From the NCBI RefSeq assembly GCF_041886205.1, contig NZ_CP169030.1: DNA of 64,000 bases; one strand, given 5' to 3'. The position numbers were made by a program, and so were the translations under genes. This DNA comes from Escherichia coli. GTDB lineage: Bacteria; Pseudomonadota; Gammaproteobacteria; Enterobacterales; Enterobacteriaceae. How positions within the stretch are numbered: position 1 is the stretch's first letter; each line of letters starts with the position of its first letter. The notes under the pieces are model-generated. The model made no database searches, was not told the DNA's origin, and worked only from the letters and a program-made list of their open reading frames with translations. This document shows positions 9,087-38,996 of this stretch, in pieces.

Positions 9087-9370
9087 CAGCGTGGCACCGG
9101 TAACGGATTGTCAGTACTGAGGCTGTCCGCCCAGGCCTGTACAGCCTGATGGTCGATAACCTGTCCGGATGTCACATCGTCCAGGGCTTCCAGCGTCAGG
9201 CGATTACGCTCCTCCTCCTGGGCAAGCCATGCAGAAAGCGCCTGTTTGATAACCCAGCCCCGGGAGCGTTCCAGCCTGGCGGCCATCTGGTCGACTTTAT
9301 CAGCCATAGGTAATGGCACATGCGCGGTAATGACTTTTGTTGCTTGTGCACTATTGTTTTTCATTTGCAT
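9086..9370 (-). CDS. Antitoxin (RHH/ParD-like) of the RelE/ParE module
   Basis: 94-aa ORF immediately upstream of and overlapping the toxin gene. Confidence 0.6.
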   Translation of the reverse strand: MQMKNNSAQATKVITAHVPLPMADKVDQMAARLERSRGWVIKQALSAWLAQEEERNRLTLEALDDVTSGQVIDHQAVQAWADSLSTDNPLPVPR

Positions 9371-9465
9371 ATCCGATTAGTTGTTAATCATATTTAATCA
9401 TAGTGATTACATTCAGACCGAACAAGGCAAATAATGCGCATCTGCGCATGTAAGGCAGCATACGG

Positions 9466-9520
9466 AGGTTACATGTAACACAGGTGTAAAACCGCCAAAG
9501 CCCGGCGTAAGCCGGTACGG
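9466..9520. repeat. Copy 1 of ~55-bp imperfect direct repeat (GGTTACATGT ... GTAAAACCGCC-AAGCCCGGCGTAAGCCGGTACGG) with internal CCGGC-GTAA-GCCGG hairpin
   Basis: Near-identical sequence recurs at 31651-31707 in the same orientation. Confidence 0.5.
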
Positions 9521-9566
9521 TCGTCCGAATATCACCAGTCCCACTCCGGCCCTGCGAGGCCATGTG

Positions 9567-9755: not shown

Positions 9756-11333
9756 TTATCCTCGTTTTTCCCAAAACTGTTTTGCCAGTTCGCTCAGAGC
9801 GCTAGTTAACTGAGCGACAGATTTCGCACTTTGCAAATTATTCTGCCCGGTCTGTACATTGGTATCAGCAGCATCGCGTATATTGATAATACTGCGGTTT
9901 ATGTCTTCACTTACTGCTCCCTGCTGCTCGACCGCAGTCGCTATTTGCGCGTTCATGTCGGTAATTTCGTTAACGCGTTGGCCAATTCCATCAAGAGCTG
10001 TAGCTGCTTCCTCTGCGTGAGCTACACTCGTGTGCGCTTGCCGACTACTTTGCTCCATGACTGTAACAGCGGATTGCGCTCGCTCTTGTAGAGCGCTGAT
10101 CATGCTTTGAATATCCGTTGTCGATTGCTGTGTGCGAGCAGCAAGACTGCGAACCTCATCGGCGACAACAGCAAAACCACGCCCCTGCTCACCAGCACGC
10201 GCGGCCTCAATTGCTGCGTTGAGTGCCAACAAATTCGTTTGCTCGGCGATCCCTCGTATAACGTCAAGAACTTTTGATATCTCGTTACTTTGACCTTCAA
10301 GCTCATGAATAACCTGAGTGGCTTGCCTAATTTCACCTTCAAGGGCAGTGATTGACTGGCTTGTGTGGGCTACCAGACGCTGGCCAGATGCCGTCTCAGT
10401 GTCTGCTCTTCCGGCCGCATCTGCAGCATGCTGTGCATTGCTCGCAACCTCTTGAATGCTTGCCACCATTTGGTTTACTGCCGTTGCTATTTGATCTGTC
10501 TCTGCCTGCTGCTCAACTGTAAGTACATTGCTTGACTCAATATCCTTTAGTAGGCCTCGGGTGTGTTCGCTAAGCCGATTTGATGCATCACCTATGCGAC
10601 CTACTATGGCGCCTGTTTCAGCTTGCATCATTCGTAAAGCAAACTCTATTTGGCCAAACTCATCGGTGCGCCCAGTGTAGAGGGATTGACTTAATGGGTT
10701 ATTGGAAATATTCTTGGCTCTTTCAACCAGTCTTCCAAGAGGAGAGAGAATAGCCAAAACACTAACAGAGCTTAAGCTTCCTGACATTAAAGTGGCTAAC
10801 AATAAGCTGCTTATTGATGTATCAGTAAGCATGCCGGCAGCCATTGCGCTTGATATAATACTACCCCATATGAGCAAGAGTATTTTCACGGAAAAGCTAG
10901 CAGCCAATTTCGGCCTCGCGGCCTTCCCGCTTCTCAATTGAGCATATAATTTTTCCGCAGCCAAAACCTGCTCAGGTTCAGGCTTGGTCCTTACAGACTG
11001 GTATTCAACAATCGAACCATTCTTAGCTATTGGCGTTACATAAGCACTTACCCAATAGTGGTCGCCATTTTTACAGCGATTTTTTACTAGCCCCATCCAT
11101 GAGCGGCCAGATTTTAATGTACTCCACATATGCTCAAATGCAGCAGGCGGCATATCTGGGTGTCTTACGATGTTGTGAGGCTGGCCTAATAGTTCTTCCT
11201 CAGTGAAACCACTGATTTTAATGAAGTCAGGATTAACGTACGTGATATGGCTTTGAGGGGAGGTAGTCGAAAGAATATTGGCATCTTTTGGGAGTTCTAA
11301 GTTTCGACCCGTCACTGGTAAATTCTGGCGCAT
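9756..11333 (-). CDS. Methyl-accepting chemotaxis protein-like protein with PAS domain (Tn1721 orfI-type cargo)
   Basis: 525 aa; N-terminal PAS-like region, central TM segments, C-terminal MCP signalling domain ([31 protein letters not shown]). Confidence 0.8.
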
Positions 11334-16460: not shown

Positions 16461-16793
16461 TTAGTGAACACTTGCCTTAGATAGCAAGTTGAGCACAGCA
16501 ACGCCGCTGATAATGAAGCCGACACCAACAAATCCCCACATATCTAGTTTTTGACCATGCAAAACCCATGCAATCGCAGTGACCAAGACGATCCCGAGGC
16601 CCGACCAAACTGCGTAGGCGATTCCAACAGGAATCGATTTGAGTGTCAGCGACAGGAAATAAAAAGCAGCAGCGTATCCCGCTACGACGATAAAAGACGG
16701 TACTAACCTAGTAAAGCCCTCACTAGACTTGAGCGCAGAGGTTGCAATGACCTCAAAAATAATGGCCGTAGCCAGAAATAACCAATTTTTCAA
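16461..16793 (-). CDS. Small multidrug resistance (SMR) quaternary ammonium compound efflux protein, qacH/qacL-type gene cassette
   Basis: 110-aa frame [27 protein letters not shown]... with probable TTG start; the ORF-track entry 16461-17102 is an artefactual upstream extension through attI1. Confidence 0.75.
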
Positions 16794-16888
16794 AATATTT
16801 CTCCATGGAGTTCCGCGAAGAAATTTTAGGTTCGATTTAAGAAAAAAAACAGTCTTGTTGCTGGCCGAAATTTGTGCGCACAGCAAAG

Positions 16889-16965
16889 CATCTAACTTTG
16901 TTTTAGGGCGACTGCCCTGCTGCGTAACATCGTTGCTGCTCCATAACATCAAACATCGACCCACG
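16889..16965. other. attI1 site (copy 1) with cassette junction GTTAGATGC on minus strand
   Basis: Sequence CCCTAAAACAAAGTTAGATGC (minus strand) directly upstream of intI1; boundaries approximate. Confidence 0.6.
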
Positions 16966-17031
16966 GCGTAACGCGCTTGCTGCTTGGATGCCCGAGGCAT
17001 AGACTGTACAAAAAAACAGTCATAACAAGCC

Positions 17032-18045
17032 ATGAAAACCGCCACTGCGCCGTTACCACCGCTGCGTTCGGTCAAGGTTCTGGACCAGTTGCGTGAGCGC
17101 ATACGCTACTTGCATTACAGTTTACGAACCGAACAGGCTTATGTCCACTGGGTTCGTGCCTTCATCCGTTTCCACGGTGTGCGTCACCCGGCAACCTTGG
17201 GCAGCAGCGAAGTCGAGGCATTTCTGTCCTGGCTGGCGAACGAGCGCAAGGTTTCGGTCTCCACGCATCGTCAGGCATTGGCGGCCTTGCTGTTCTTCTA
17301 CGGCAAGGTGCTGTGCACGGATCTGCCCTGGCTTCAGGAGATCGGAAGACCTCGGCCGTCGCGGCGCTTGCCGGTGGTGCTGACCCCGGATGAAGTGGTT
17401 CGCATCCTCGGTTTTCTGGAAGGCGAGCATCGTTTGTTCGCCCAGCTTCTGTATGGAACGGGCATGCGGATCAGTGAGGGTTTGCAACTGCGGGTCAAGG
17501 ATCTGGATTTCGATCACGGCACGATCATCGTGCGGGAGGGCAAGGGCTCCAAGGATCGGGCCTTGATGTTACCCGAGAGCTTGGCACCCAGCCTGCGCGA
17601 GCAGCTGTCGCGTGCACGGGCATGGTGGCTGAAGGACCAGGCCGAGGGCCGCAGCGGCGTTGCGCTTCCCGACGCCCTTGAGCGGAAGTATCCGCGCGCC
17701 GGGCATTCCTGGCCGTGGTTCTGGGTTTTTGCGCAGCACACGCATTCGACCGATCCACGGAGCGGTGTCGTGCGTCGCCATCACATGTATGACCAGACCT
17801 TTCAGCGCGCCTTCAAACGTGCCGTAGAACAAGCAGGCATCACGAAGCCCGCCACACCGCACACCCTCCGCCACTCGTTCGCGACGGCCTTGCTCCGCAG
17901 CGGTTACGACATTCGAACCGTGCAGGATCTGCTCGGCCATTCCGACGTCTCTACGACGATGATTTACACGCATGTGCTGAAAGTTGGCGGTGCCGGAGTG
18001 CGCTCACCGCTTGATGCGCTGCCGCCCCTCACTAGTGAGAGGTAG
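17032..18045 (+). CDS. intI1: Class 1 integron integrase IntI1 (copy 1)
   Basis: 337-aa tyrosine recombinase [49 protein letters not shown]... Confidence 0.95.
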
Positions 18046-18222
18046 GGCAGCGCAAGTCAATCCTGGCGGATTCACTACCCCTGCGCGAAGGCCATCGGTG
18101 CCGCATCGAACGGCCGGTTGCGGAAAGTCCTCCCTGCGTCCGCTGATGGCCGGCAGCAGCCCGTCGTTGCCTGATGGATCCAACCCCTCCGCTGCTATAG
18201 TGCAGTCGGCTTCTGACGTTCA

Positions 18223-18247
18223 GTGCAGCCGTCTTCTGAAAACGACA
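18223..18247. repeat. IRi (25-bp inverted repeat at intI1 end), copy 1, internal
   Basis: GTGCAGCCGTCTTCTGAAAACGACA; followed by TTTGA rather than the CGCCT seen outside IRt. Confidence 0.8.
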
Positions 18248-18329
18248 TTTGAACCGGGAACCTTCCCTTTTTGGCTAGGCGTGAAACAATGGTCATTTTC
18301 CCTATACCCAAAATGACCAGGAGGCCCGC

Positions 18330-18428
18330 ATGAAAGTCGCACGCATCTACCTGCGCGTGAGCACGGAGGAACAAGACCTAAGCCGGCAGGATGCCATCGT
18401 GGAGAGCTTAAATAAGACCGTCCCGTAA
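18330..18428 (+). pseudogene. Serine recombinase (resolvase) N-terminal fragment, truncated after ~27 codons by the 88-bp repeat
   Basis: MKVARIYLRVSTEEQDLSRQDAIVES matches the catalytic-serine N-terminus of resolvases; frame then runs into repeat sequence and stops. Confidence 0.5.
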
Positions 18429-18495
18429 ATTTCAGCCGAATCCGACAAAAAGGCGTGAAGATTTCCTTTAAATAGAGAGACCGAAGGTCATCCTT
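18408..18495. repeat. 88-bp direct repeat, copy A, flanking the tet(M) segment
   Basis: TTAAATAAGACCGTCCCGTAAATTTCAGCCGAATCCGACAAAAAGGCGTGAAGATTTCCTTTAAATAGAGAGACCGAAGGTCATCCTT, identical at 20999-21086. Confidence 0.85.
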
Positions 18496-18648
18496 TTCCT
18501 AAAAAAGGGGGGGGCCATGGTTCCAAGATGTAAAATCGAGGGCTAATTCAGGCTATACTTGAACTATCCTTAATGGAATCTTTAGCCAGCGGTATCAACG
18601 AAGCAAGAAACATCGAAGACTAATTAAAAGAATCCATACATAACGGAA

Positions 18649-18693
18649 AGAGCCGATAAAATGAGATTGTATTAATCTCATTTTATCGGCTCT
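18649..18693. terminator. Long perfect hairpin (19-bp stem) at the 3' end of the small ORF downstream of tet(M)
   Basis: AGAGCCGATAAAATGAGATT-gtat-TAATCTCATTTTATCGGCTCT. Confidence 0.45.
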
Positions 18694-18850
18694 GCGTCTT
18701 TGCGTCTGGCTCTGTAATCGCAGTTACTTTGAACTGCTTTATTTCAATTAAATTTTCTTGTCTGCATTTCGGACAATAGAGGGGGAATTTTTTTAATTCA
18801 GTATCTTCCCTTATCTTTAATCGTGTTTTATTTCCACATACAGGACACAA
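18683..18850 (-). CDS. Small Cys-rich zinc-ribbon-like protein (~55 aa), Tn916 orf6-like, downstream of tet(M)
   Basis: Minus-strand frame CPVCGNKTRLKIREDTELKKFPLYCPKCRQENLIEIKQFKVTAITEPDAKTQSR with TTG/GTG start; below ORF-track length cutoff. Confidence 0.4.
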   Translation of the reverse strand: MCPVCGNKTRLKIREDTELKKFPLYCPKCRQENLIEIKQFKVTAITEPDAKTQSR

Positions 18851-18968
18851 TATCCACTTGTAGTTTATAATAACTATCTCCTCCTTTACACTTTAATTCA
18901 AATCTTTATTAAAAAATATTTCATCTTATTTAACAAGAAACCATATTTATATAACAACATAAAATACA

Positions 18969-20888
18969 CTAAGTTATTTTATTGAACATATATCGTACTT
19001 TATCTATCCGACTATTTGGACGACGGGGCTGGCAAACAGGTTCACCGGTAGTAACATGGTACCCTTTTAACTCTGTTAAACAAACACTACGTCCATTTGT
19101 AAAGAAAGTTAAATCACTACGATATTCTTGAATACACCGAGCAGGGATTTCTCCACTAAGAATGACCTCATTATTTTTCAATTGAGTGTCTACGATGTTC
19201 GCACAATATTTAGGAGCATCGTTGTATGCTCGTGAAAGATATTCCTGTGGCGCATAAATTTTAAAACTAAGATATGGCTCTAACAATTCTGTTCCAGCTT
19301 TTTTTAAGACTTGTTCCAATACAATAGGAGCAAGCATCCGAAAATCTGCTGGGGTACTAACAGGGCTATAGTATAAGCCATACTTAAAACAGATTTTACA
19401 GTCCGTCACATTCCAACCATACAATCCTTGTTCACAGCCATAGCGTATCCCTTCCATAACTGCATTTTGAAATGATTGATTTAAGTATCCAAGAGAAACC
19501 GAGCTCTCATACTGCATTCCACTTCCCAACGGAAGCGGTGATACAGATAAACCAATGGAAGCCCAGAAAGGATTTGGCGGCACTTCGATGTGAATGGTAT
19601 ATTCTGCATTTTTTAACGGTCTCTCCATATAAATGACTGTAGGCTCTTTTAGTTCTATCTCCACATGATACTTTTCTTGCAACAGTGCACTAATCACTTC
19701 CATTTGTACTTTCCCTAAGAAAGAAAGTATAATTTCATGTGTCGTAGAATCCACGTAATATCGTAGAAGCGGATCACTATCTGAGATTTCCAAAAGGGCA
19801 TCAAGCAACATTTCTCTCTGTTCAGGTTTACTCGGTTCAACAGTTGTTTGTAGTAGAGGGTGCGGATTTTCAATCTTTTTTCTCTGTGGCAATAGTTTTG
19901 TATCTCCAAGAACACTATTTAACTTCAAAAACTCATTTTGCAAAATAACAATTTCCCCGGAATAAGCCTTATCGATTTTACATAATTCACCATTTATTGA
20001 AGTATACATTTCTGTAATTTTTATTTTTTCCTTTTCCGATATTCTAACCGAATCTCGCAAATGCAGTACGCCACTATAAAGACGTATATATGCAAGACGT
20101 TGTCTTTTTTTTGTATATTCAATTTTGAAAACATTTCCGCAAAGTTCAGACTGACCTCGATGTGTTGATGAATAAAATTTATTCGTAATCACTTCTATAA
20201 GGTTATCAATCCCTATATTGTTTTTTGCACTTCCATGATAAAGAGGGAACAGAGAACAATTCTGAAATCTTATGCTTTCCTCTTGTTCGAGTTCCAATGC
20301 TTCTAATGATTTACCGGACATATATTTCTCTAAAAGGTCATCGTTTCCCTCTATTACCGTATCCCATTGTTCAGATTCGGTAAAGTTCGTCACACACATA
20401 TTAGGATACAGTTCTACCTTCTGTTTGATTACAATTTCGGCAGAAAGTTTCTCTTTAATATCCTGATAAACCGTTGATAAATCAATTCCATTTTGGTCAA
20501 TCTTATTGATAAAAAAGATTGTGGGAATCCCCATTTTCCTAAGTGCATGAAATAATATACGAGTTTGTGCTTGTACGCCATCTTTTGCAGAAATCAGTAG
20601 AATTGCCCCATCTAAAACTGATAATGAACGATATACTTCTGCTAAGAAATCCATATGTCCTGGCGTGTCTATGATGTTCACCTTCGTATTTTCCCACTGA
20701 AAAGAGGTTATTCCTGTCTGAATTGTAATTCCTCTCTGACGTTCTAAAAGCGTATTATCCGTCCTCGTTGTACCTTTGTCCACGCTTCCTAATTCTGTAA
20801 TCGCTCCACTGTTATATAATAAGCTTTCTGTTAAGGTAGTTTTTCCCGCATCAACATGAGCTAAAACTCCAATATTAATAATTTTCAT
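18969..20888 (-). CDS. tet(M): Tetracycline resistance ribosomal protection protein Tet(M)
   Basis: 639 aa starting [30 protein letters not shown] (translational GTPase motifs); the ORF-track frame begins 5 codons upstream. Confidence 0.95.
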
Positions 20889-20903
20889 GTGATTTTCCTC
20901 CAT

Positions 20904-20990
20904 TCAAAAGCCCAAAAGGGCATAAAAATCCCAGTGATAAATACTCTTATCACTGGGATTTTTATGCATAACCATAGGCATACAAAGCAT
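20904..20990 (-). CDS. tet(M) leader peptide (28 aa) of the transcriptional attenuator
   Basis: MLCMPMVMHKNPSDKSIYHWDFYALLGF immediately upstream of tet(M), as in Tn916. Confidence 0.7.
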   Translation of the reverse strand: MLCMPMVMHKNPSDKSIYHWDFYALLGF

Positions 20991-20998
20991 ACAGATAT

Positions 20999-21086
20999 TT
21001 AAATAAGACCGTCCCGTAAATTTCAGCCGAATCCGACAAAAAGGCGTGAAGATTTCCTTTAAATAGAGAGACCGAAGGTCATCCTT
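20999..21086. repeat. 88-bp direct repeat, copy B, flanking the tet(M) segment
   Basis: Identical to 18408-18495, same orientation. Confidence 0.85.
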
Positions 21087-21134
21087 GAAGAAGGAGTCCT
21101 CGGTGAGATTCAGAATGCCGAACACCGTCACCCT
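21087..21134 (-). pseudogene. sul1: sul1 5' fragment (codons ~2-17 only), joined on one side to the 88-bp repeat and on the other to truncated attI1
   Basis: Minus strand reads (V)TVFGILNLTEDSFF, the N-terminus of Sul1 dihydropteroate synthase, lacking its ATG and everything after codon ~17. Confidence 0.7.
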
Positions 21135-21200
21135 GCTGCGTAACATCGTTGCTGCTCCATAACATCAAACATCGACCCACGGCGTAACGCGCTTGCTGCT
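21133..21200. other. attI1 (copy 2), truncated: lacks the GTTAGATGC crossover end
   Basis: Sequence identical to copy 1 from CCCTGCTGCGTAACATCG onward, but the cassette-proximal ~25 bp are replaced by the sul1 fragment. Confidence 0.6.
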
Positions 21201-21247
21201 TGGATGCCCGAGGCATAGACTGTACAAAAAAACAGTCATAACAAGCC

Positions 21248-22261
21248 ATGAAAACCGCCACTGCGCCGTTACCACCGCTGCGTTCGGTCAAGGTTCTGGA
21301 CCAGTTGCGTGAGCGCATACGCTACTTGCATTACAGCTTACGAACCGAACAGGCTTATGTCCACTGGGTTCGTGCCTTCATCCGTTTCCACGGTGTGCGT
21401 CACCCGGCAACCTTGGGCAGCAGCGAAGTCGAGGCATTTCTGTCCTGGCTGGCGAACGAGCGCAAGGTTTCGGTCTCCACGCATCGTCAGGCATTGGCGG
21501 CCTTGCTGTTCTTCTACGGCAAGGTGCTGTGCACGGATCTGCCCTGGCTTCAGGAGATCGGAAGACCTCGGCCGTCGCGGCGCTTGCCGGTGGTGCTGAC
21601 CCCGGATGAAGTGGTTCGCATCCTCGGTTTTCTGGAAGGCGAGCATCGTTTGTTCGCCCAGCTTCTGTATGGAACGGGCATGCGGATCAGTGAGGGTTTG
21701 CAACTGCGGGTCAAGGATCTGGATTTCGATCACGGCACGATCATCGTGCGGGAGGGCAAGGGCTCCAAGGATCGGGCCTTGATGTTACCCGAGAGCTTGG
21801 CACCCAGCCTGCGCGAGCAGCTGTCGCGTGCACGGGCATGGTGGCTGAAGGACCAGGCCGAGGGCCGCAGCGGCGTTGCGCTTCCCGACGCCCTTGAGCG
21901 GAAGTATCCGCGCGCCGGGCATTCCTGGCCGTGGTTCTGGGTTTTTGCGCAGCACACGCATTCGACCGATCCACGGAGCGGTGTCGTGCGTCGCCATCAC
22001 ATGTATGACCAGACCTTTCAGCGCGCCTTCAAACGTGCCGTAGAACAAGCAGGCATCACGAAGCCCGCCACACCGCACACCCTCCGCCACTCGTTCGCGA
22101 CGGCCTTGCTCCGCAGCGGTTACGACATTCGAACCGTGCAGGATCTGCTCGGCCATTCCGACGTCTCTACGACGATGATTTACACGCATGTGCTGAAAGT
22201 TGGCGGTGCCGGAGTGCGCTCACCGCTTGATGCGCTGCCGCCCCTCACTAGTGAGAGGTAG
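21248..22261 (+). CDS. intI1: Class 1 integron integrase IntI1 (copy 2, identical protein)
   Basis: Identical 337-aa translation to copy 1; one silent nucleotide difference noted. Confidence 0.95.
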
Positions 22262-22438
22262 GGCAGCGCAAGTCAATCCTGGCGGATTCACTACCCCTGC
22301 GCGAAGGCCATCGGTGCCGCATCGAACGGCCGGTTGCGGAAAGTCCTCCCTGCGTCCGCTGATGGCCGGCAGCAGCCCGTCGTTGCCTGATGGATCCAAC
22401 CCCTCCGCTGCTATAGTGCAGTCGGCTTCTGACGTTCA

Positions 22439-22463
22439 GTGCAGCCGTCTTCTGAAAACGACA
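22439..22463. repeat. IRi, copy 2 (outer end of integron), followed by CGCCT target duplication
   Basis: GTGCAGCCGTCTTCTGAAAACGACA then CGCCT at 22464-22468. Confidence 0.8.
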
Positions 22464-22485: not shown

Positions 22486-23046
22486 GTGCAGGGGCACCGC
22501 ATCGGCTACGTCCGGGTCAGCAGCTTTGACCAGAACCCGGAACGCCAGCTGGAACAAACCCAGGTGAGCAAGGTGTTCACCGACAAGGCATCGGGCAAGG
22601 ACACCCAGCGCCCCCAGCTCGAAGCGCTGCTGAGCTTCGTCCGCGAAGGCGATACAGTGGTGGTGCACAGCATGGATCGGCTGGCCCGCAACCTCGATGA
22701 CCTGCGTCGCTTGGTACAGAAGCTGACTCAGCGCGGCGTGCGCATCGAGTTCCTGAAGGAGGGCCTGGTGTTCACTGGCGAGGACTCGCCGATGGCCAAC
22801 CTGATGCTGTCGGTGATGGGGGCCTTCGCTGAGTTCGAGCGCGCCCTGATCCGCGAGCGGCAGCGTGAGGGCATCGCCTTGGCCAAGCAGCGTGGCGCGT
22901 ACCGGGGCCGCAAGAAAGCCCTGTCCGATGAGCAGGCTGCTACCCTGCGGCAGCGAGCGACGGCCGGCGAGCCCAAGGCGCAGCTTGCCCGCGAGTTCAA
23001 CATCAGCCGGGAAACCCTCTACCAGTACCTCCGCACGGACGACTGA
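22486..23046 (+). CDS. tnpR: TnpR resolvase (Tn21/Tn1721 subfamily)
   Basis: 186-aa serine recombinase MQGHRIGYVRVSSFDQNPERQ... Confidence 0.9.
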   Translation: MQGHRIGYVRVSSFDQNPERQLEQTQVSKVFTDKASGKDTQRPQLEALLSFVREGDTVVVHSMDRLARNLDDLRRLVQKLTQRGVRIEFLKEGLVFTGEDSPMANLMLSVMGAFAEFERALIRERQREGIALAKQRGAYRGRKKALSDEQAATLRQRATAGEPKAQLAREFNISRETLYQYLRTDD

Positions 23047-23049
23047 CAC

Positions 23050-26016
23050 ATGCCGCGTCGCTTGATCCTCTCGGCCACGGAGCGGGACACCCTGCTTGCG
23101 CTGCCGGAAAGCCAGGATGACCTGATCCGCTACTACACCTTCAACGACTCCGACCTGTCGCTGATCCGCCAGCGACGCGGCGACGCCAACCGCCTCGGCT
23201 TCGCCGTGCAGCTCTGCCTGCTGCGCTACCCCGGTTACGCGCTGGGAACCGACAGCGAGCTGCCCGAGCCGGTCATCCTGTGGGTGGCGAAGCAAGTCCA
23301 GGCCGAGCCGGCGAGCTGGGCAAAGTACGGCGAGCGCGACGTGACCCGTCGCGAGCATGCCCAGGAACTGCGCACCTACCTGCAACTGGCCCCGTTCGGC
23401 CTGTCCGACTTCCGCGCCCTGGTGCGCGAGCTAACCGAGCTGGCCCAGCAGACCGACAAAGGCTTGCTGCTGGCCGGTCAGGCCCTGGAGAGCCTACGGC
23501 AGAAACGACGCATCCTGCCGGCGCTGAGCGTGATTGACCGGGCCTGCTCGGAAGCCATTGCGCGAGCCAATCGGCGGGTCTACCGCGCCCTGGTCGAACC
23601 ACTCACGGACTCGCATCGGGCCAAGCTGGACGAGCTGTTGAAGCTCAAGGCCGGCAGCAGCATCACCTGGTTGACCTGGCTGCGCCAGGCACCGCTGAAA
23701 CCCAACTCTCGGCACATGCTGGAACACATCGAGCGGCTGAAGACATTTCAGTTGGTGGACTTGCCCGAAGGCCTGGGCCGGCACATCCACCAGAACCGCC
23801 TGCTCAAGCTGGCCCGCGAGGGTGGGCAGATGACGCCCAAAGACCTCGGTAAGTTCGAGCCGCAGCGCCGCTACGCGACCCTGGCCGCCGTGGTGCTGGA
23901 GAGCACCGCGACCGTGATCGATGAGCTGGTCGATCTGCATGACCGCATCCTGGTCAAGCTGTTCAGCGGCGCGAAGCACAAGCATCAGCAGCAGTTCCAG
24001 AAGCAGGGCAAGGCGATCAACGACAAGGTGCGCCTGTACTCCAGGATCGGCCAGGCGCTGCTGGAAGCGAAGGAAAGCGGCAGCGACCCCTATGCCGCCA
24101 TCGAGGCGGTGATTCCCTGGGACGAGTTCACCGAGAGCGTCAGCGAGGCCGAGCTGCTGGCCCGGCCGGAAGGCTTCGACCACCTGCACCTGGTCGGCGA
24201 GAACTTCGCCACCCTGCGCCGTTACACGCCGGCCTTGCTGGAGGTGCTGGAACTGCGCGCCGCGCCGGCCGCGCAAGGCGTGCTGGCAGCCGTGCAGACC
24301 CTGCGTGAGATGAACGCCGACAACCTGCGCAAGGTGCCGGCCGATGCACCCACGGCCTTCATCAAGCCGCGCTGGAAGCCGCTGGTGATCACCCCGGAAG
24401 GCCTCGACCGGAAATTCTACGAAATCTGCGCCCTGTCCGAGCTGAAGAACGCCCTGCGCTCCGGCGACATCTGGGTCAAGGGCTCGCGGCAGTTCCGCGA
24501 CTTCGACGACTACCTGCTGCCGGCCGAGAAGTTCGCCGCACTCAAGCGCGAGCAGGCCCTGCCCCTGGCGATCAACCCGAACAGCGACCAGTACCTGGAA
24601 GAGCGTTTGCAGCTGCTGGACGAGCAGTTGGCCACCGTCACCCGCCTGGCCAAGGACAACGAGCTGCCCGATGCCATCCTCACCGAGTCAGGGCTGAAAA
24701 TCACCCCGCTGGATGCGGCGGTGCCGGATCGGGCGCAGGCGCTGATCGACCAAACCAGCCAGTTACTGCCGCGCATCAAGATCACCGAACTGCTGATGGA
24801 CGTGGACGACTGGACGGGCTTCAGCCGCCACTTCACCCACTTGAAGGACGGGGCCGAGGCCAAAGACAGGACGTTGCTGCTGTCCGCAATCCTCGGTGAT
24901 GCGATCAACCTCGGGCTGACCAAGATGGCCGAGTCGAGCCCCGGCCTGACCTACGCCAAGCTGTCCTGGCTGCAAGCCTGGCACATCCGCGACGAAACCT
25001 ATTCGGCGGCCTTGGCCGAGCTGGTCAACCACCAGTATCGCCACGCCTTTGCCGCCCACTGGGGCGACGGCACGACCTCATCCTCCGATGGCCAGCGCTT
25101 CCGCGCGGGTGGCCGGGGCGAGAGCACCGGGCACGTCAACCCGAAGTACGGTAGCGAGCCGGGACGGCTGTTCTATACCCATATCTCCGACCAGTACGCG
25201 CCGTTCAGCACCCGCGTGGTGAATGTCGGCGTCCGCGATTCCACCTATGTGCTCGACGGCCTGCTGTACCACGAGTCCGACCTGCGGATCGAGGAGCACT
25301 ACACCGACACGGCCGGCTTCACCGATCACGTCTTTGCCCTGATGCACCTGCTAGGCTTCCGCTTCGCGCCGCGCATCCGCGACCTCGGCGAAACCAAGCT
25401 GTACGTGCCGCAGGGCGTGCAAGCCTACCCGACGTTGCGCCCGCTGATCGGCGGCACCCTGAACATCAAGCACGTGCGTGCCCACTGGGACGACATCCTG
25501 CGCCTGGCCAGCTCGATCAAGCAGGGCACCGTCACCGCCTCGCTGATGCTGCGCAAGCTCGGCAGCTACCCGCGCCAGAACGGACTGGCCGTGGCCCTGC
25601 GCGAGCTGGGCCGGATCGAGCGCACGCTGTTCATCCTGGACTGGCTGCAAAGTGTTGAACTGCGCCGCCGCGTGCATGCCGGCCTGAACAAAGGTGAGGC
25701 GCGCAACTCGCTGGCCAGGGCGGTGTTCTTCAACCGCCTTGGGGAAATCAGGGATCGGAGCTTCGAGCAGCAGCGCTACCGGGCCAGCGGCCTCAACCTG
25801 GTGACGGCGGCTATCGTGCTGTGGAACACGGTGTACCTGGAACGCGCCACCCAGGGGTTGGTCGAGGCCGGCAAGCCGGTGGACGGCGAGCTGCTGCAAT
25901 TCCTGTCGCCGCTGGGCTGGGAGCACATCAACCTAACCGGCGATTACGTCTGGCGGCAGAGCCGCAGACTGGAAGACGGGAAGTTTCGGCCCTTACGGAT
26001 GCCCGGAAAACCTTAG
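23050..26016 (+). CDS. tnpA: TnpA transposase (Tn3 family, Tn21/Tn1721 subfamily)
   Basis: 988-aa ORF ending inside the terminal inverted repeat. Confidence 0.9.
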
Positions 26017-26319: not shown

Positions 26320-26520
26320 ACGAATACCCTTTCCGGTATTGATGGCATCAGTTGAAGAGCATGTTATTCTCTTGAGCTATTTGTGCCACACAGGCGCGGG
26401 GGGCGTTTTTTACCACGGGGACTTCGGGCATAAAAACAAGGGGCCGCAAACACGGCCCTTAATTCAGATCTAACCGGGTACGCTATCTGTTGCCCTGGAA
26501 AATTGATCTGACAACTCAGT
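26320..26520. mobile_element. Rearranged IS66-family remnant
   Basis: 26330-26430 resembles the region around 34460-34640 of the intact IS66-family copy; 26466-26513 resembles, in opposite orientation, 32307-32350. Confidence 0.45.
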
Positions 26521-26567
26521 AAAGATCAATACGGTTCTGACGAGCAGCTTACCTGCCTGTTTGCGTT

Positions 26568-31470: not shown

Positions 31471-31650
31471 TGCGATTCTCCGGAGAAGGCTGGGATATTT
31501 ACATTAAATCAACATGCTGTCAGAAGAAAGCACTAAGTAGAGAATGGCGCGCATAACAAAACAACCGACAGGTTGACTTTTCAGAATAGGGGCAGTTTGG
31601 TGATCGTCACCAGTATATGCAGCGTCAGCTGCATGGAAGGCGGCACGCTG

Positions 31651-31707
31651 TGGTTACATGTGATACCGGAGTAAAACCGCCGAAGCCCGGCGTAAGCCGG
31701 TACGGAT
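31651..31707. repeat. Copy 2 of the ~55-bp imperfect direct repeat
   Basis: GGTTACATGTGATACCGGAGTAAAACCGCCGAAGCCCGGCGTAAGCCGGTACGG, compare 9466-9520. Confidence 0.5.
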
Positions 31708-32254
31708 TGACAGATTTCACCTTACCCATCCCTTGCCCTGCCAGACCATACCTGCTTTCAGCCATGACAGAGCTTTTGTGCGCGGTCGGAGTGGTCCCGA
31801 CGAGGGTTTACCCGAAGTCGGGGCGTATCTCCGCGTTAGCGGGCCATCAGGGCCGCTTACGAGCGTGTACTCAATACTTCCAGCGAGAAGACTGACAGCG
31901 ATGAAGATGTAGTTACAACATTCATAATTAAAAGCGACTCTGTTCCGGCCCTTTGGGCCGGGGCGGGGCCGCTTTTCAGTTATGAGGGTGGGGCTTTGTG
32001 GTTTCGGTTCTGCGCTGGACCGGGGTTTTTCTTGGTGGTTCTGTTTGTGTGTTGTAACTAAAGTGGCTCCGGTCGGGGCCCGCCGCTTGCGGTGGGAGGT
32101 GCATATCTGTCTGTCCACAGGACAGGCAGTGAATAGGTTTTCTTTTTAAATGAATGTAATTAAGTAGTTTAAAGGAGATATAAACAGGTGTTTAAAAGAT
32201 ACATTGCACCCTGTAAGGCTGGCGGCTGGCGCTTTATGACATGAACGGTTGTAA

Positions 32255-32262: not shown

Positions 32263-32293
32263 AGTAAGCGACTCGTCAGAACCGTATTGATAT

Positions 32294-33865
32294 TTACTGA
32301 GAGCTCAGATCAACTTTCCAGGGCAACAGATCGCGTACCCGGTTTGCCGGCCAGTCCTGGATATGTTCAATGACGTAACGCAGCCACTTTTCTGGCTCCA
32401 CATTGTTCAGACGGCATGTGCCGATCAGCGAGTACAACACCGCCGCATGTTCACCACCGCTGTCGGAACCCGCGAACATCCAGTTTTTCCGGCCTACGGC
32501 CACTCCCCGTAAGGCGTTCTCTGCGATGTTGTTGTCGATTTCCACCCAGCCATTACTGCAGTACACGTTCAGTGCATCCCACTGTTTCAGCAGGTATGCG
32601 AACGCTTTTGCCGTATCTGAGTGACGCGACAGTGTTTTCATCTGTTGCTGTATCCAGTCATACAGTGACTGCATCAGTGGCGCGGCTCTGGCTTTTCTTG
32701 CCGCCAGACGCTGTTCTGCTGAACAGCCCCGGACCTCTGCCTCGATGGCATACAGTTCACCGATACGCTGCAGGGCTTCCGTGGTGATGTAGGTGGACGC
32801 TCTTGCATGCACATCGTGGATTTTTCTCCGGGCATGAGCCATACACGCGGCTTCCGTTATTCTGCCGGATTCGTATAACGCCCGGTAACCACCGTAAGCA
32901 TCGGCCTGAAGCACACCGCTGTAACCGGCCAGGTGATTTTGTGGATGGATACCTTTCCGGTCCGGACTGTACGCGAACCAGACCGCCGGGGGCATCTGTG
33001 AACCGGCGTTACGGTCATCACGGACGTAGACCCACAGCCGGGCTGTCCGGGTTTTACCGCTGCCCGGCTCCTGGACCGGGACGGGGATATCATCAGCATG
33101 GACTTTACCGGGCATCAGCACATACTGGCGCAGGACGTCATACAGCGGCTCCAGCAGTTCAGCAACAGCACCTGTCCAGCGCCCCAGTGTGGCACGGCTC
33201 AGCTCCACTCCCTGACGACGGTATATTTCTGACTGGCGGTATAACGGCAGATGGTCTGCATATTTCCCGGTGACAACATGGGCCAGAAGCCCCGCTCCGG
33301 CATAACTGCGTGCAATGGGTTTTGAAGGTACTGGTGCCTGCACGATATGGTCGCACCGGCAACAGGCCTGTTTCGGACGTTGTGTTTCGATAACCTTAAA
33401 GGCGCTGCTGATAAGCTCCAGTTGCTCTGACACATCACATCCCAGAGAACTGAGTTCACCACCACAGGCAGGACAGCATTCCTCTTCCGGCCGGATAACC
33501 CGGGTTTCACGGGGAAGTGAGGCCGGTAACGGTTTACGGGCTGAAGACTGGCGCAGGGCGGATGGCAGTACCGGGTCATATTGCTCACCCAGCGTTTCCG
33601 CCATTTCTTCCTGAAGTGCGCTGATTCGCTCCTGTGCTTCCTGTATCTGCCGTTCGGTTTTTGCACGAAGTTTTTCTGAGCTTTTACCGAACTGCATACG
33701 TTGCAGTTTCGCAACCAGCGCCTTCAGCCGGTTGATTTCGGAAGCATAAGCCGCCACCCGCTGTGAGAGCAGGCGGTTGTATTCAGCCATCTGGCGGATG
33801 GTGTCCTGTTGCGTCTGCAACAGTGCCCGCAGGCGGGCGTTCTCATGAGCAAGTGAGGTGTCCAT
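32294..33865 (-). CDS. tnpC: IS66-family transposase TnpC
   Basis: 523 aa with N-terminal leucine zipper, CxxC zinc-finger (CPACGGEL ... CRCDH) and DDE region. Confidence 0.85.
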
Positions 33866-36108: not shown

Positions 36109-36807
36109 ATCTGGTCTGAACCAGATGGTTCCTCCATCAAAAGCGATGAGATGAAGATCATTATCAAGAGTTTTGAGGGCTCTCCAAACACGAGTGTATG
36201 AACCTCCACTACAAACTGAAAGCTCTTTAACAGATAAGTTAACTTTGTTCGTATCAGGGATGTAGTGTGCGCACATTACTTGTACGAGGGAAACATAAAA
36301 ACTAACCATCGACGCGCTGATTTTATTTTTACGTTTGCCATGCGCTATTACAAGCAAACCTCTGATGAAGATCAGATGCTTGAAGGAGTCAAAATGAGCC
36401 CTTTTCTGGAGAAGGCTGCAAAACAGGTGAGGATACTTGCTGGAATCAATGTGAAGATCTGATTCAATCCCACCCGCTATTACTGAATGTGTTTCATGAT
36501 TAGCCACACCATCCTGCACTTACAATGCACAGAAGGAGTGAGCACAGAAAGAAGTCTTGAACTTTTCCGGGCATATAACTATACTCCCCGCATAGCTGAA
36601 TTGTTGGCTATACGGTTTAAGTGGATCCCGGTAATCTTCTCCTCGTCGCCAAACTAGATGAAGATTATCGGGGTTTTTGCTTTTCTGGCTCCTGTAAATC
36701 CACATCAGAACCAGTTCCCTGCCACCTTATGGCGTGGCCAGCCACAAAATTCCTTAAACGATCAGCAATCTATCACTCACGCCTGAGATAAGCAAGAATG
36801 TGAATAT

Positions 36808-37348: not shown

Positions 37349-37555
37349 TTACTTCCGTGCTTCGTAGGCCAGAGTTACCTGCACCACTGTATTTCCCCTG
37401 TGAATATTCAGCTCACATAACCGTTCCCTGAATATCAGTGAAAAACACAACACCGTAGCGCACACGGCGAGCAACCCGATAAGGGCATATTTCGTCATAA
37501 ACTTTGACCTCTCTGCAAGGAAGAGGCTACAATCAGTAGTGTTAAGGTACTTCAT
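37349..37555 (-). CDS. srnB: SrnB (Hok-family) post-segregational killing toxin
   Basis: MKYLNTTDCSLFLAERSKFMTKYALIGLLAVCATVLCFSLIFRERLCELNIHRGNTVVQVTLAYEARK. Confidence 0.8.
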   Translation of the reverse strand: MKYLNTTDCSLFLAERSKFMTKYALIGLLAVCATVLCFSLIFRERLCELNIHRGNTVVQVTLAYEARK

Positions 37556-37892
37556 GCAGACCTCACGAGTTAATGGATTAACAAGTGGGGTCTTCGCATT
37601 TCTGGTACCTGCGTCTTGCCTGAACCAGAAAGGCTCAGACACCCGCCGCGATAATACCACATTCCCTGTTGCTTAATAACTGCCACCACTGGCGCGATCA
37701 GATATTGGTTGTCTGGAGATTCAGGGTCCAACCTAACTTGAGCCAGCTATAGCGCGAAACCGTAAATTATTGTTCGTATGCTCCCGCTGGTCCAGAATGG
37801 GAATTCCCTCTGTCTGATGTTGAGCAGTCATGGAGAATTGAAACTTGTTTAAGACTTTGGCAGCCTACTGTTTTTAATACACCCAATAAGGT

Positions 37893-38210: not shown

Positions 38211-38996
38211 GCATGAGTTGTTCCCCAAAAGGATTTTGGGGGTGTTAAAAATAGTTTACATTTCCAGTTAAGATTCAGTGCGAAACACTTTTCCCGCAAG
38301 TATCTGTGTGCCACAAATTATATTAATCAGAGTCTTATGGGGTTCAACTTATTCAAACCGTAAGTTTCTGCACAGACTTTCCTGCTGGCCCAGTACACGA
38401 ACAACCTGCCCATAAATATCTGCAGACAATACCGGCTATGAAAAGATAAATAATACCAGTGGAATATATTCCCTCATGTTATTCTCCATATCAAATAAAT
38501 GGCACCTGTATTTCAGGCATCCTGAATATTGCAGCACACATTGAATAACACCTTATTTTGTGAAATAAATCACAAAATATAAAATCACGACTTAATACGA
38601 AAAAAAACTCTGTGCTACTCAGAATTGTCCGGTCATACTACCCGACCGGAGATTAAAAAAGTAAATCTCATGCATTATTCAGCCTTCTGACTCCTGGAGT
38701 AATGAAGGCTGCTTTTTTCGTTACACCTTTCCCCGGCAGCCCGTCGCCATGCTTCTGCCGCTTCCATCCAGCGTCCACTGATCTCCAGAATAACGGCCCG
38801 GCTTCCGGCACGCTGCCAGCGCCAGACCTGACCGTTCCGTGAACTGTTTCTGAATCCATTCATTTTTCTGCCCCTCCCTTTTAGTCGTCAGTATTATTGT
38901 GGTAAATAATTCAGTGGACTGGCTTCCTTTCGGGTACGGAAGTTATTTCCTTTTAAGCCTTATTTCCCTGCCTCCTCTCTCTGATGGAGGCTTTTT

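What the first reader, a model, noticed from the sequence alone, without database searches (positions are those of the whole stretch)
21087..21200. sul1 start fused directly to a truncated attI1
The first ~16 codons of sul1 (minus its ATG) abut attI1 sequence that lacks the GTTAGATGC crossover end. All cassettes and qacEdelta1 that normally separate attI1 from sul1 are absent, and sul1 is cut after codon ~17 by the 88-bp repeat. This junction implies a precise deletion between attI1 and the sul1 start followed by a second insertion. intI1 copy 2 has therefore lost its primary recombination site.
Basis: partly seen in the sequence, partly recalled or inferred. Interest (0 to 1): 0.5.

Follow-up and report, generated by a model that had tools for sequence, protein, structure and literature searches.

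The report
Known orf11–sul1 remnant beside tet(M)
The sul1 start joined to a cut-down attI1 is real, but it is a leftover of a long-known integron variant (the Tn610 type) that entered this plasmid as one edge of a 4.2-kb tet(M) module, so it is an ordinary piece of resistance-plasmid mosaic.

Summary
Window 21087-21132 is sul1 nt 3-48 (codons 2-16), reverse strand, 100% identical. It abuts an attI1 that keeps DR1, DR2 and the ORF-11 start but lacks the L and R boxes.

The deletion did not happen in this plasmid. The same junction, with full-length sul1, is in about 100 PLSDB plasmids of many genera. It is the published in-frame orf11::sul1 fusion of Tn610 and P. aeruginosa PA7.

Here the fusion is cut after codon 16 by the first 88 bp of a 153-bp end piece of a 1.79-kb ISCR/IS91-like insertion sequence. 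Direct copies of that piece bracket a promoterless Tn916-type tet(M).

The whole 4216-bp unit (5'-CS, resolvase-gene fragment, 153 bp, tet(M), 88 bp, sul1 remnant) lies between two 5'-CS copies. Removing it recreates a known qacG2 integron in TnAs1 with one mismatch in 8785 bp. The unit occurs between six different cassette arrays, with recombinant Pc alleles, so it most likely spreads by homologous recombination.

An intact attI1 lies 4.2 kb upstream, so "lost its recombination site" holds only in cis. One untested possibility remains: Pc and the ORF-11 start may now drive tet(M).

The parts
16871..16960 (-). Intact attI1 of integron copy 1: R box 16890-16896, L box 16902-16908, DR1 16922-16928, DR2 16941-16947. 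The qacG2 cassette lies to its left (16464-16793).
   Evidence: Motif positions. Rfam RF02912 (attI) hit at 16871-16942, 72 bits. Annotation of the identical record NZ_AP024116.
16915..18247 (+). 5'-CS copy 1, 1333 bp. Contains intI1 (17032-18045), a Pc -10 box TAAACT (T at 17121) and IRi (18223-18247).
   Evidence: Identical to 21131-22463 except at one base. Pc alleles.
18248..18407 (+). Flank of IRi plus the first 26 codons of a parA/resolvase-type gene (ATG at 18330), cut exactly at the left end of the 153-bp element.
   Evidence: Translation read. Positions 18248-18361 are the IRi flank of many integrons, including two Tn610-type ones with full sul1, LC746227 and LC746226. 87.8% identity to an IncP-type parA.
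18408..18560 (+). Full 153-bp ori-end piece of a 1790-bp ISCR/IS91-like insertion sequence (a solo copy without the transposase gene).
   Evidence: Identical 153-bp copies with different flanks in MAGs, metagenome contigs and pABF9692. In full elements it lies 45 bp after a 462-aa ISCR/IS91-family transposase gene. Its terminal ...GGGC...CTATAC resembles the ISCR2 end.
18561..20998 (-). tet(M) segment: KTR orf 18683-18850, tet(M) 18972-20888, leader peptide 20904-20990. The native Tn916 promoter is absent.
   Evidence: Annotation. Homology to Tn916-type regions stops at about 20998, 8-10 bp upstream of the leader ATG, so the promoter region seen in E. faecalis pQZ076-2 is missing.
20999..21086 (+). 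First 88 bp of a second copy of the 153-bp element, truncated by the sul1 junction.
21087..21132 (-). sul1 nt 3-48 (codons 2-16). Positions 21131-21132 are ambiguous with attI1.
   Evidence: Exact match to canonical sul1. 100% identical to 119 plasmids across the junction.
21133..21190 (-). attI1 remnant: DR1 21138-21144, DR2 21157-21163, ORF-11 ATG 21144-21146, SD GGAG 21155-21158. The L and R boxes are deleted.
   Evidence: No Rfam attI hit at this position. attI1 architecture from PMC12901181. ORF-11 translation start region from PMC8876359.
20904..21146 (-). 80-codon hybrid ORF: ORF-11 codons 1-5, sul1 codons 2-16, read-through of the 88-bp piece, then the Tn916 tet(M) leader peptide in frame. 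Its TGA stop abuts the tet(M) SD.
   Evidence: Translation. No stops in this frame, against 5 and 1 in the other two frames. The exact 80-aa product was called on 79 public contigs.
21131..22463 (+). 5'-CS copy 2. Contains intI1 (21248-22261, intact, 337 aa), Pc on the minus strand (-35 TGGACA at 21358-21363, -10 TAAGCT at 21335-21340, i.e. PcW), an inactive P2 and IRi (22439-22463).
22486..26016 (+). tnpR and tnpA of a TnAs1-type Tn3-family transposon, the resident site of the qacG2 Tn402-like integron.
   Evidence: Annotation. The same arrangement without the 4216-bp unit is in pESBL3301-IncX1.

Best explanation
The 21087-21200 stretch is the right-hand edge of a 4216-bp tet(M) module that sits between two copies of the class 1 integron 5'-CS.

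The edge is a truncated copy of the Tn610-type integron. In that variant, an old illegitimate deletion removed the last ~20 bp of attI1 (L and R boxes), any cassettes, qacEdelta1 and the sul1 ATG. It fused ORF-11 codons 1-5 in frame to sul1 codon 2, so sul1 is transcribed from Pc and translated from the ORF-11 start.

In an ancestor of the module, a Tn916-derived, promoterless tet(M) segment was bracketed by direct copies of the 153-bp ori-end of an ISCR/IS91-like element. That segment became joined on one side to a resolvase gene next to IRi, exactly at the element's natural end. On the other side it was joined to sul1 codon 16, from inside the second copy at position 88. The two joints close a unit made of 5'-CS, resolvase fragment, 153 bp, tet(M), 88 bp and the sul1 remnant.

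That unit then entered other class 1 integrons by homologous recombination within the 5'-CS. Here the target was a qacG2 Tn402-like integron in TnAs1, and the crossover fell in the first 206 bp of homology.

What is shown: the identity of every segment, the pre-existence of the fusion, the exact 4216-bp difference from an 'empty' relative, and the varied contexts. What is inferred: the order of the two tet(M) joints, a circular intermediate, and involvement of the ISCR-like transposase.
For: Sequence identity of the junction:
- sul1 nt 3-48 match exactly.
- attI1 lacks the L and R boxes but keeps DR1, DR2 and ORF-11. The Rfam attI model hits only copy 1.

The fusion pre-exists this plasmid:
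- A junction-spanning 53-nt probe finds 119 PLSDB plasmids in Klebsiella, Pseudomonas, Comamonas, Paenarthrobacter and others, most with full-length sul1.
- The fusion is in frame: MLRSR followed by Sul1 from V2, 283 aa.
- That exact protein carries the UniRef name DHP1_MYCFO and is seen on at least 1000 contigs.

The module is one recently spread unit:
- The 88|sul1|attI1 double junction is in 17 plasmids and in 8 of 5426 complete E. coli genomes.
- The 2885-bp core is 100% identical in six carriers. These have cassette arrays qacG2, dfrA16-blaCARB-2-aadA2, dfrA17-aadA5, aadA12-lnu(F) and aadB-aadA2-cmlA6, on IncF, IncC, IncY and IncHI2 plasmids, with four different flanks beyond IRi. A seventh carrier, pEGYMCR_IncHI2 (dfrA1-aadA1), holds the same module with a different right-hand junction.
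- Pc alleles at (copy 1, copy 2) are (T,C), (C,T) or (T,T), as expected from crossovers at different points.
- Deleting 4216 bp from the window reproduces pESBL3301-IncX1 over 8785 bp with one mismatch, when the crossover is placed left of the Pc SNP.
- Tn610-type integrons with full sul1 share the same IRi flank, 18248-18361 (LC746227 and LC746226).

The repeat is an ISCR-like end:
- 153-bp copies occur with varied flanks.
- A 462-aa ISCR/IS91-family transposase gene lies 45 bp upstream in a 1790-bp element that is identical in two MAGs.
- The terminal CTATAC motif resembles the ISCR2 end.
Against: - No intermediate was found, that is a Tn610-type integron with intact sul1 plus a complete 153-tet(M)-153 insertion. 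The metagenome scan for the tet(M)|element junction gave nothing.
- The circular form is inferred, not observed.
- pESBL3301-IncX1 could equally be a deletion derivative of the window structure rather than its ancestor.
- One record, pEGYMCR_IncHI2, joins the same sul1 remnant, within 1-2 nt of the same breakpoint, to an 18-bp IS26 end instead of attI1. The model does not explain this. It could be a real second event or an assembly error.
- The resolvase fragment 18362-18407 has no exact match outside the module.
Confidence: 0.8

Rival explanations
1. Local history. This plasmid's own second integron lost the end of attI1, its cassettes and qacEdelta1 by a deletion in situ. A later insertion then cut sul1.
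For: The structure read alone is compatible with this: two junctions and two events.
Against: The identical junction with full-length sul1 exists in about 100 unrelated plasmids and was published for Tn610 and PA7. The same truncated double junction is in at least 17 plasmids with different backbones. Removing 4216 bp restores a known single-integron structure almost perfectly. The resident integron's attI1 and cassette therefore survive as copy 1.
Confidence: 0.04
2. The attI1::sul1 junction was made by IntI1 itself, through site-specific recombination between attI1 and a secondary site at the start of sul1.
For: IntI1 is known to use secondary sites (own knowledge). DR1 and DR2 binding sites flank the junction.
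Against: IntI1 crossovers occur between the G and the TT of a GTT in the R box (PMC12901181). The breakpoint on the attI1 side lies about 20 bp upstream of the R box, inside CAGCAGG|G. The sul1 side has no GTT at the breakpoint. Only a 2-nt GG microhomology is present.
Confidence: 0.05
3. The two 5'-CS copies arose by a tandem duplication or replication error in one ancestral replicon with tet(M) DNA captured at the novel joint. The structure then moved only as part of larger segments, through transposons or plasmid recombination, and not as a 4.2-kb unit recombining into integrons.
For: A duplication with filler DNA would give the same linear order. No circle has been observed.
Against: There are six different cassette arrays on the left and four different sequences beyond IRi on the right. 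The core is 100% identical, and Pc alleles are shuffled between the two copies. This needs repeated exchange within the 5'-CS, which is the homologous-recombination model in practice.
Confidence: 0.1
4. Assembly artefact: a chimeric join of repeats in this record.
For: The region is repeat-rich, with two 1333-bp copies. One related record (pEGYMCR_IncHI2) has a suspicious singleton junction.
Against: The same 7-kb sequence is 100% identical in four independent complete plasmids. The double junction is in 8 complete E. coli genomes from different laboratories and countries.
Confidence: 0.01

Closest known systems
Tn610 (Mycobacterium fortuitum) and the P. aeruginosa PA7 RGP42 truncated integron with the orf11::sul1 fusion
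   Same: The attI1-delta::sul1 junction is identical. The fusion is in frame, ORF-11 MLRSR followed by Sul1 from V2. There are no cassettes, no qacEdelta1 and no L/R boxes, and intI1 is intact.
   Different: Here sul1 stops after codon 16 and runs into an ISCR-like remnant and tet(M). There is no sulfonamide-resistance function and no IS6100 flanks.
Complex class 1 integrons with ISCR1 (In6/In7 type)
   Same: An ISCR-family element is joined to the sul1 region. A foreign resistance gene is flanked by duplicated integron conserved segments. Spread through circular forms plus homologous recombination has been proposed for them (own knowledge of Toleman et al. 2006).
   Different: In those integrons ISCR1 is joined downstream of sul1/orf5 and the 3'-CS is duplicated. 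Here the joint is at sul1 codon 16 and the 5'-CS is duplicated. Only 153-bp and 88-bp pieces of a different ISCR-like element remain; its transposase scores 302 bits against a 925-bit cut-off for ISCR clade Ia.
IS26-bounded tet(M) units of E. coli and Salmonella (Tn6539, Tn6942, Tn7124)
   Same: They carry Tn916-derived tet(M) with its leader peptide on Enterobacterales plasmids, often next to class 1 integrons (PMC6340991, PMC11539080).
   Different: Those units are bounded by IS26 and keep upstream Tn916 DNA ('ctp'). They are only about 96-98% identical to this tet(M) region. None has the 88/153-bp repeats.
ORF-11 translational coupling in attI1 (Hanau-Bercot et al. 2002)
   Same: The same SD (GGAG, 8 nt upstream) and ATG are used to start translation on Pc transcripts (PMC8876359).
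   Different: The canonical ORF-11 ends at the cassette core-site TAG and acts by coupling. Here it is a true in-frame fusion, first to sul1 and now to an 80-codon ORF that ends at the tet(M) SD.

Membership tests
Class 1 integron platform (copy 2) | Intact intI1 with the Pc promoter inside it | tested here: met
   The ORF at 21248-22261 is 337 aa and is annotated WP_000845048.1 in the identical record. Pc has -35 TGGACA and -10 TAAGCT.
Class 1 integron platform (copy 2) | Functional attI1 with L and R boxes and the G|TT crossover point | tested here: not met
   The L box and R box are absent and only DR1 and DR2 remain. There is no Rfam RF02912 hit at copy 2.
Class 1 integron platform (copy 2) | 3'-CS (qacEdelta1-sul1-orf5) or a tni module | tested here: not met
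   Only 46 nt of sul1 remain. The tni module belongs to copy 1.
Tn610-type orf11::sul1 integron | Exact attI1-delta::sul1 joint, in frame with ORF-11 | tested here: met
   The 53-nt junction probe is 100% identical to 119 plasmids. The frame was checked. The published description is in PMC2809737.
Tn610-type orf11::sul1 integron | Complete sul1 conferring sulfonamide resistance | tested here: not met
   sul1 ends after codon 16 at 21087.
Tn610-type orf11::sul1 integron | IS6100 copies flanking the unit (Tn610 proper) | not tested
   No IS6100 was seen next to the remnant in the annotated relative. The window was not searched specifically for IS6100.
ISCR/IS91-family element (source of the 88/153-bp repeat) | HUH-type IS91/ISCR transposase adjacent to the end sequence | tested here: met
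   In L010 and L012 a 462-aa ORF hits NCBIfam ISCR clade Ia (302 bits, below the 925 cut-off) and transpos_IS91 (116 bits, just below its 125-bit cut-off). It ends 45 bp before the 153-bp piece. No transposase gene is present in the window.
ISCR/IS91-family element (source of the 88/153-bp repeat) | Conserved ori-end terminus | tested here: inconclusive
   The terminus GGGCTAATTCAGGCTATAC resembles the ISCR2 terminus GGGCGTTTATTCTTCCTATAC, compared by eye. No family-wide model was available.
ISCR/IS91-family element (source of the 88/153-bp repeat) | Rolling-circle transposition | not testable with these tools
   This needs a transposition assay.
Tn916-family tet(M) determinant | tet(M) with its leader peptide and attenuator | tested here: met
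   tet(M) is 99.5% identical to the reference, and the 28-aa leader and hairpin are present.
Tn916-family tet(M) determinant | Native upstream promoter region and conjugation/integration genes | tested here: not met
   Homology to Tn916-type DNA stops 8-10 bp upstream of the leader ATG and about 320 bp downstream of tet(M).

The most novel reading that the evidence does not exclude
The remnant may not be inert debris. It may be the expression signal of tet(M) in this module.

The Tn916 promoter and the leader's own ribosome-binding region were lost. Pc of intI1 copy 2 points into tet(M). The ORF-11 start opens an 80-codon frame that runs through the sul1 remnant and the 88-bp piece, in frame into the tet(M) leader peptide, and stops at the tet(M) SD. 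Ribosomes loaded at ORF-11 would cross the attenuator hairpin and could raise tet(M) expression in Enterobacterales.

Linked to this, tet(M) was delivered by an apparently undescribed 1.79-kb ISCR-like element. Its 153-bp end pieces bracket resistance-type cargo in environmental Bacteroidota-type and other MAGs. The cargo includes Tet(X), Mph-like, OXA-like, AadA-like, ABC-F and Sat-like genes. If real, this is a rolling-circle gene-collecting system that links those bacteria to clinical integrons.
Probability: 0.25. Interest if true: 0.5.

Novelty: already known. Interest (0 to 1): 0.22.

Why it matters
As posed, the finding matters little. The sul1-attI1 joint is a published, common integron variant, and its truncated copy here no longer gives sulfonamide resistance.

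It is useful as a marker. The 88|sul1|attI1 double joint identifies one specific tet(M) module that has spread among IncF, IncC, IncY and IncHI2 plasmids of E. coli and Salmonella from livestock, food, water and people. It appears to spread by recombining into any class 1 integron. That is a route for a Gram-positive ribosome-protection gene into integron-bearing Enterobacterales that needs no IS26.

Two points go beyond book-keeping, and both are unproven. The Pc/ORF-11 remnant may drive tet(M), and an ISCR-like element may be collecting resistance genes in environmental bacteria.

Tried and rejected
1. The 88-bp repeat as native Tn916 DNA: rejected. Tn916-type homology in Enterococcus and other E. 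coli plasmids stops exactly where the repeat starts. The repeat is in only 19 PLSDB records.
2. An IntI1 secondary-site origin for the junction: rejected. There is no GTT at the breakpoint.
3. A scan for a sigma-70 promoter or terminator between Pc and tet(M): nothing found. The scan is too strict even to flag PcW, so this is weak evidence.
4. A metagenome scan for the tet(M)|element junction, to find an ancestor with a complete second 153-bp copy: no match.
5. Literature searches for a description of this tet(M) module, and for 'truncated/partial attI1' next to sul1: no paper on the module was found. The orf11::sul1 fusion itself was found only through the protein look-up followed by a Tn610 search.
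6. The pEGYMCR_IncHI2 alternative junction (sul1 remnant joined to an 18-bp IS26 end): a singleton in PLSDB. I could not decide between a real event and a misassembly.
7. pHH2-227 as the source location of the Tn610-type integron: rejected. Its IRi flank differs. LC746227 and LC746226 share the flank.
8. The left end of the full ISCR-like element does not resemble the internal site where the 153-bp solos begin. The constant left boundary of the solos is therefore unexplained.

Full report
**What is in the sequence.** On the minus strand, 21087-21132 is an exact copy of sul1 nt 3-48, that is the last G of the ATG plus codons 2-16. It runs straight into 5'-CS sequence. The join is ...GTTACGCAGCAGG|GTGACGGTG..., with two G's that could belong to either parent.

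Compared with the complete attI1 of the first integron copy, the second copy keeps DR1 (21138-21144) and DR2 (21157-21163). It also keeps the ORF-11 ribosome-binding site and ATG. It lacks the L box (CCCTAAA) and the R box (GTTAGAT), which holds the crossover point. The attI1 architecture is taken from PMC12901181.

The Rfam model for the attI region (RF02912) hits copy 1 at 16871-16942 and nothing at copy 2.

**The attI1-sul1 joint is old, common and published.** A 53-nt probe was designed so that only DNA spanning the joint could seed a match. It finds 119 PLSDB plasmids at 100% identity. They come from Klebsiella, Pseudomonas, Escherichia, Enterobacter, Comamonas, Aeromonas and even Paenarthrobacter. 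Most carry a full-length sul1 under the match.

In those records the joint is an in-frame fusion. The ORF-11 start (MLRSR) replaces the sul1 initiator methionine, giving a 283-aa Sul1. That exact protein is in the public collection under the UniRef name DHP1_MYCFO and was seen on at least 1000 contigs. DHP1_MYCFO is the Mycobacterium fortuitum Tn610 protein.

It happened long ago and elsewhere, and was presumably kept because sul1 is then transcribed from Pc and translated from the ORF-11 start. The ORF-11 signals are described in PMC8876359.

The breakpoint has no GTT and lies about 20 bp from the R box. Ordinary illegitimate recombination fits better than an integrase reaction.

**What cut sul1.** The '88-bp repeat' is the first 88 bp of a discrete 153-bp sequence (TTAAATAAGACCG...GGCTATACTT). 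The complete copy is at 18408-18560. In PLSDB it occurs only in the tet(M) module and once in Acinetobacter pABF9692, next to tet(X)/estT.

Scans of GTDB genomes and JGI metagenomes found identical copies in MAGs labelled Flavobacterium, Saprospiraceae and Oligoflexia, and in metagenome contigs. Their flanks differ on both sides. In three contigs the 153 bp follows, after 45 bp, a 462-aa ORF. That ORF matches the NCBIfam ISCR clade Ia and IS91 transposase models. ORF and 153 bp form the right-hand part of a 1790-bp block that is 100% identical in two unrelated contigs. Its outer terminus (GGGC...CTATAC) resembles the ISCR2 end seen in pABF9692.

I therefore read the repeat as the ori-end piece of an ISCR/IS91-like insertion sequence.

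**The tet(M) segment and its two joints.** The tet(M) segment (18561-20998) is Tn916-derived. However, homology to Tn916-type DNA stops 8-10 bp upstream of the leader-peptide ATG, so the native promoter region is gone. The segment is bracketed by direct copies of the 153-bp piece, as are other 2-4-kb cargo segments in the environmental contigs.

The left joint (resolvase codon 26 | 153-bp) coincides with the natural boundary of the solo copies. The right joint (88 | sul1 codon 16) lies inside the element and shows no microhomology.

**How the region is built.** The order in the window is as follows:
- tniABQR
- qacG2 cassette
- intact attI1
- intI1 and IRi (copy 1)
- 160 bp of IRi flank with the first 26 codons of a parA-type resolvase gene
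- 153-bp piece
- tet(M) segment
- 88-bp piece
- sul1 remnant and attI1 remnant
- intI1 and IRi (copy 2)
- tnpR and tnpA of TnAs1

The two 5'-CS copies (16915-18247 and 21131-22463) differ at one base, in the Pc -10 box. Copy 1 has TAAACT and copy 2 has TAAGCT.

**Evidence for spread by homologous recombination.** Plasmid pESBL3301-IncX1 carries the same qacG2 integron in the same TnAs1 site with a single intI1. Deleting 4216 bp from the window reproduces 8785 bp of that plasmid with one mismatch, provided the crossover is placed in the 206 bp left of the Pc SNP.

The 2885-bp core from the resolvase fragment to the sul1 remnant is 100% identical in six sampled carriers. In those the module sits next to qacG2, dfrA16-blaCARB-2-aadA2, dfrA17-aadA5, aadA12-lnu(F) or aadB-aadA2-cmlA6 arrays. 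The plasmids are IncF, IncC, IncY and IncHI2, from Japan, the USA, Canada and Cuba, and there are four different sequences beyond the right-hand IRi. A seventh carrier, pEGYMCR_IncHI2 (dfrA1-aadA1), has the same module but a different right-hand junction.

The Pc alleles at (copy 1, copy 2) are (T,C), (C,T) or (T,T). This is what is expected if a unit carrying T, as Tn610-type pHH2-227 does, recombined at different points with target integrons carrying C or T.

Two Tn610-type integrons with full-length sul1 (LC746227, LC746226) share the IRi flank 18248-18361. This fits a Tn610-type integron next to a resolvase gene as the birthplace of the module. The circular intermediate and the order of the two tet(M) joints remain inferences.

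'intI1 copy 2 has lost its primary recombination site' is true in cis, but it matters little. Both intI1 genes are intact and encode the same protein. IntI1 acts in trans, and a complete attI1 with a cassette lies 4.2 kb upstream. Under the recombination model, the copy-2 intI1 from the SNP onward is the resident integron's own gene, and the incoming copy now sits next to the resident attI1.

The structure is not an artefact. Four independent complete plasmids are 100% identical over 7 kb, and 8 of 5426 complete E. coli genomes carry the double joint.

**A possible function, untested.** tet(M) lies in the cassette orientation downstream of Pc (PcW; P2 is inactive) of copy 2. From the ORF-11 ATG at 21146 an 80-codon frame is open through the sul1 remnant and the 88-bp piece. 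It is in frame with the 28-aa Tn916 leader peptide and ends at a TGA (20904-20906) directly before the tet(M) SD.

That frame has no stops over 52 codons. The other two frames have 5 and 1. NCBI annotates the 80-aa product as a 'tetracycline resistance determinant leader peptide', and it was called on 79 contigs.

The native promoter and the sequence just upstream of the leader ATG were lost. Pc and the ORF-11 start could therefore be what expresses tet(M) here. All carriers descend from one event, so there is no independent evidence of selection. The pEGYMCR variant lacks Pc at this position. I give this reading about one chance in four.

**Verdict.** The feature is a truncated copy of a known, published integron variant. 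It marks the edge of a recombination-borne tet(M) module already present in public records. As posed it is ordinary. The more interesting leads are side issues: the ISCR-like element and the possible Pc/ORF-11 drive of tet(M).

Noticed in passing
window 18408-18560 and 20999-21086; L010 1519-3308; L012 979-2768; L011 814-966 and 3924-4076; L008; L019-L023: A 1790-bp ISCR/IS91-like insertion sequence (462-aa transposase) is 100% identical in two MAG contigs. Solo copies of its 153-bp ori-end piece always start at the same nucleotide. These solos bracket 2-4-kb cargo segments that encode resistance-type proteins: Tet(X), Mph(E/G)-like, class D beta-lactamase, AadA-like, ABC-F, Sat-like and CPT-like. 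The contigs are Flavobacterium, Saprospiraceae and Oligoflexia MAGs, metagenome contigs and Acinetobacter pABF9692. This looks like a gene-collecting system, and I found no name for it.
   Followed up: partly
L005 (NZ_MT499884.1, pEGYMCR_IncHI2) 9195-9262: The same tet(M) module is present, but the sul1 remnant ends at ...CCGTCAC. It is joined to an 18-bp IS26 IRL end plus mef(B)-delta of a sul3-type integron instead of attI1. The breakpoint is within 1-2 nt of the attI1::sul1 joint. It is a singleton in PLSDB. It is either a second illegitimate event at the same spot or an assembly error at a repeat boundary.
   Followed up: partly
L008 (JAHRWO010000186.1, 3593 bp): The contig starts with the last 78 bp and ends with the first 141 bp of the 153-bp element, around a tet(X)-bearing cargo. 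L022 and L023 are similar. These are either circular molecules or cargo flanked by direct copies.
   Followed up: no
L010 3138-3168 (CGGTCTTAAATAAGACCG): In the full ISCR-like element, the point where the solo 153-bp copies begin lies inside an 8-bp-stem palindrome just after the transposase gene. This may be a second cleavage site for the HUH transposase.
   Followed up: no
window 9446-9543 and 31631-31728; 26472-26552 / 32264-32344: There is a 98-nt direct repeat (78% identity). Each copy lies just downstream of a ~525-aa minus-strand ORF (9756-11333 and 32294-33865). There is also an 81-nt inverted repeat (90% complementary) 5.7 kb apart. No Rfam family hit either at gathering threshold. 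They were not identified.
   Followed up: no
window 17121 vs 21337: The only difference between the two 1333-bp 5'-CS copies is the Pc -10 box. Copy 1, in front of qacG2, has TAAACT (PcH1). Copy 2, in front of tet(M), has TAAGCT (PcW). The two arrays therefore have promoters of different strength.
   Followed up: yes
window 36592-36682, 37488-37644, 38642-38754, 42723-42799, 52092-52177: Rfam hits typical of an IncF backbone: CopA, sok, AS-pc02, AS-traI and AS-traG. They are consistent with the IncFIA/FIC typing of the identical record.
   Followed up: no
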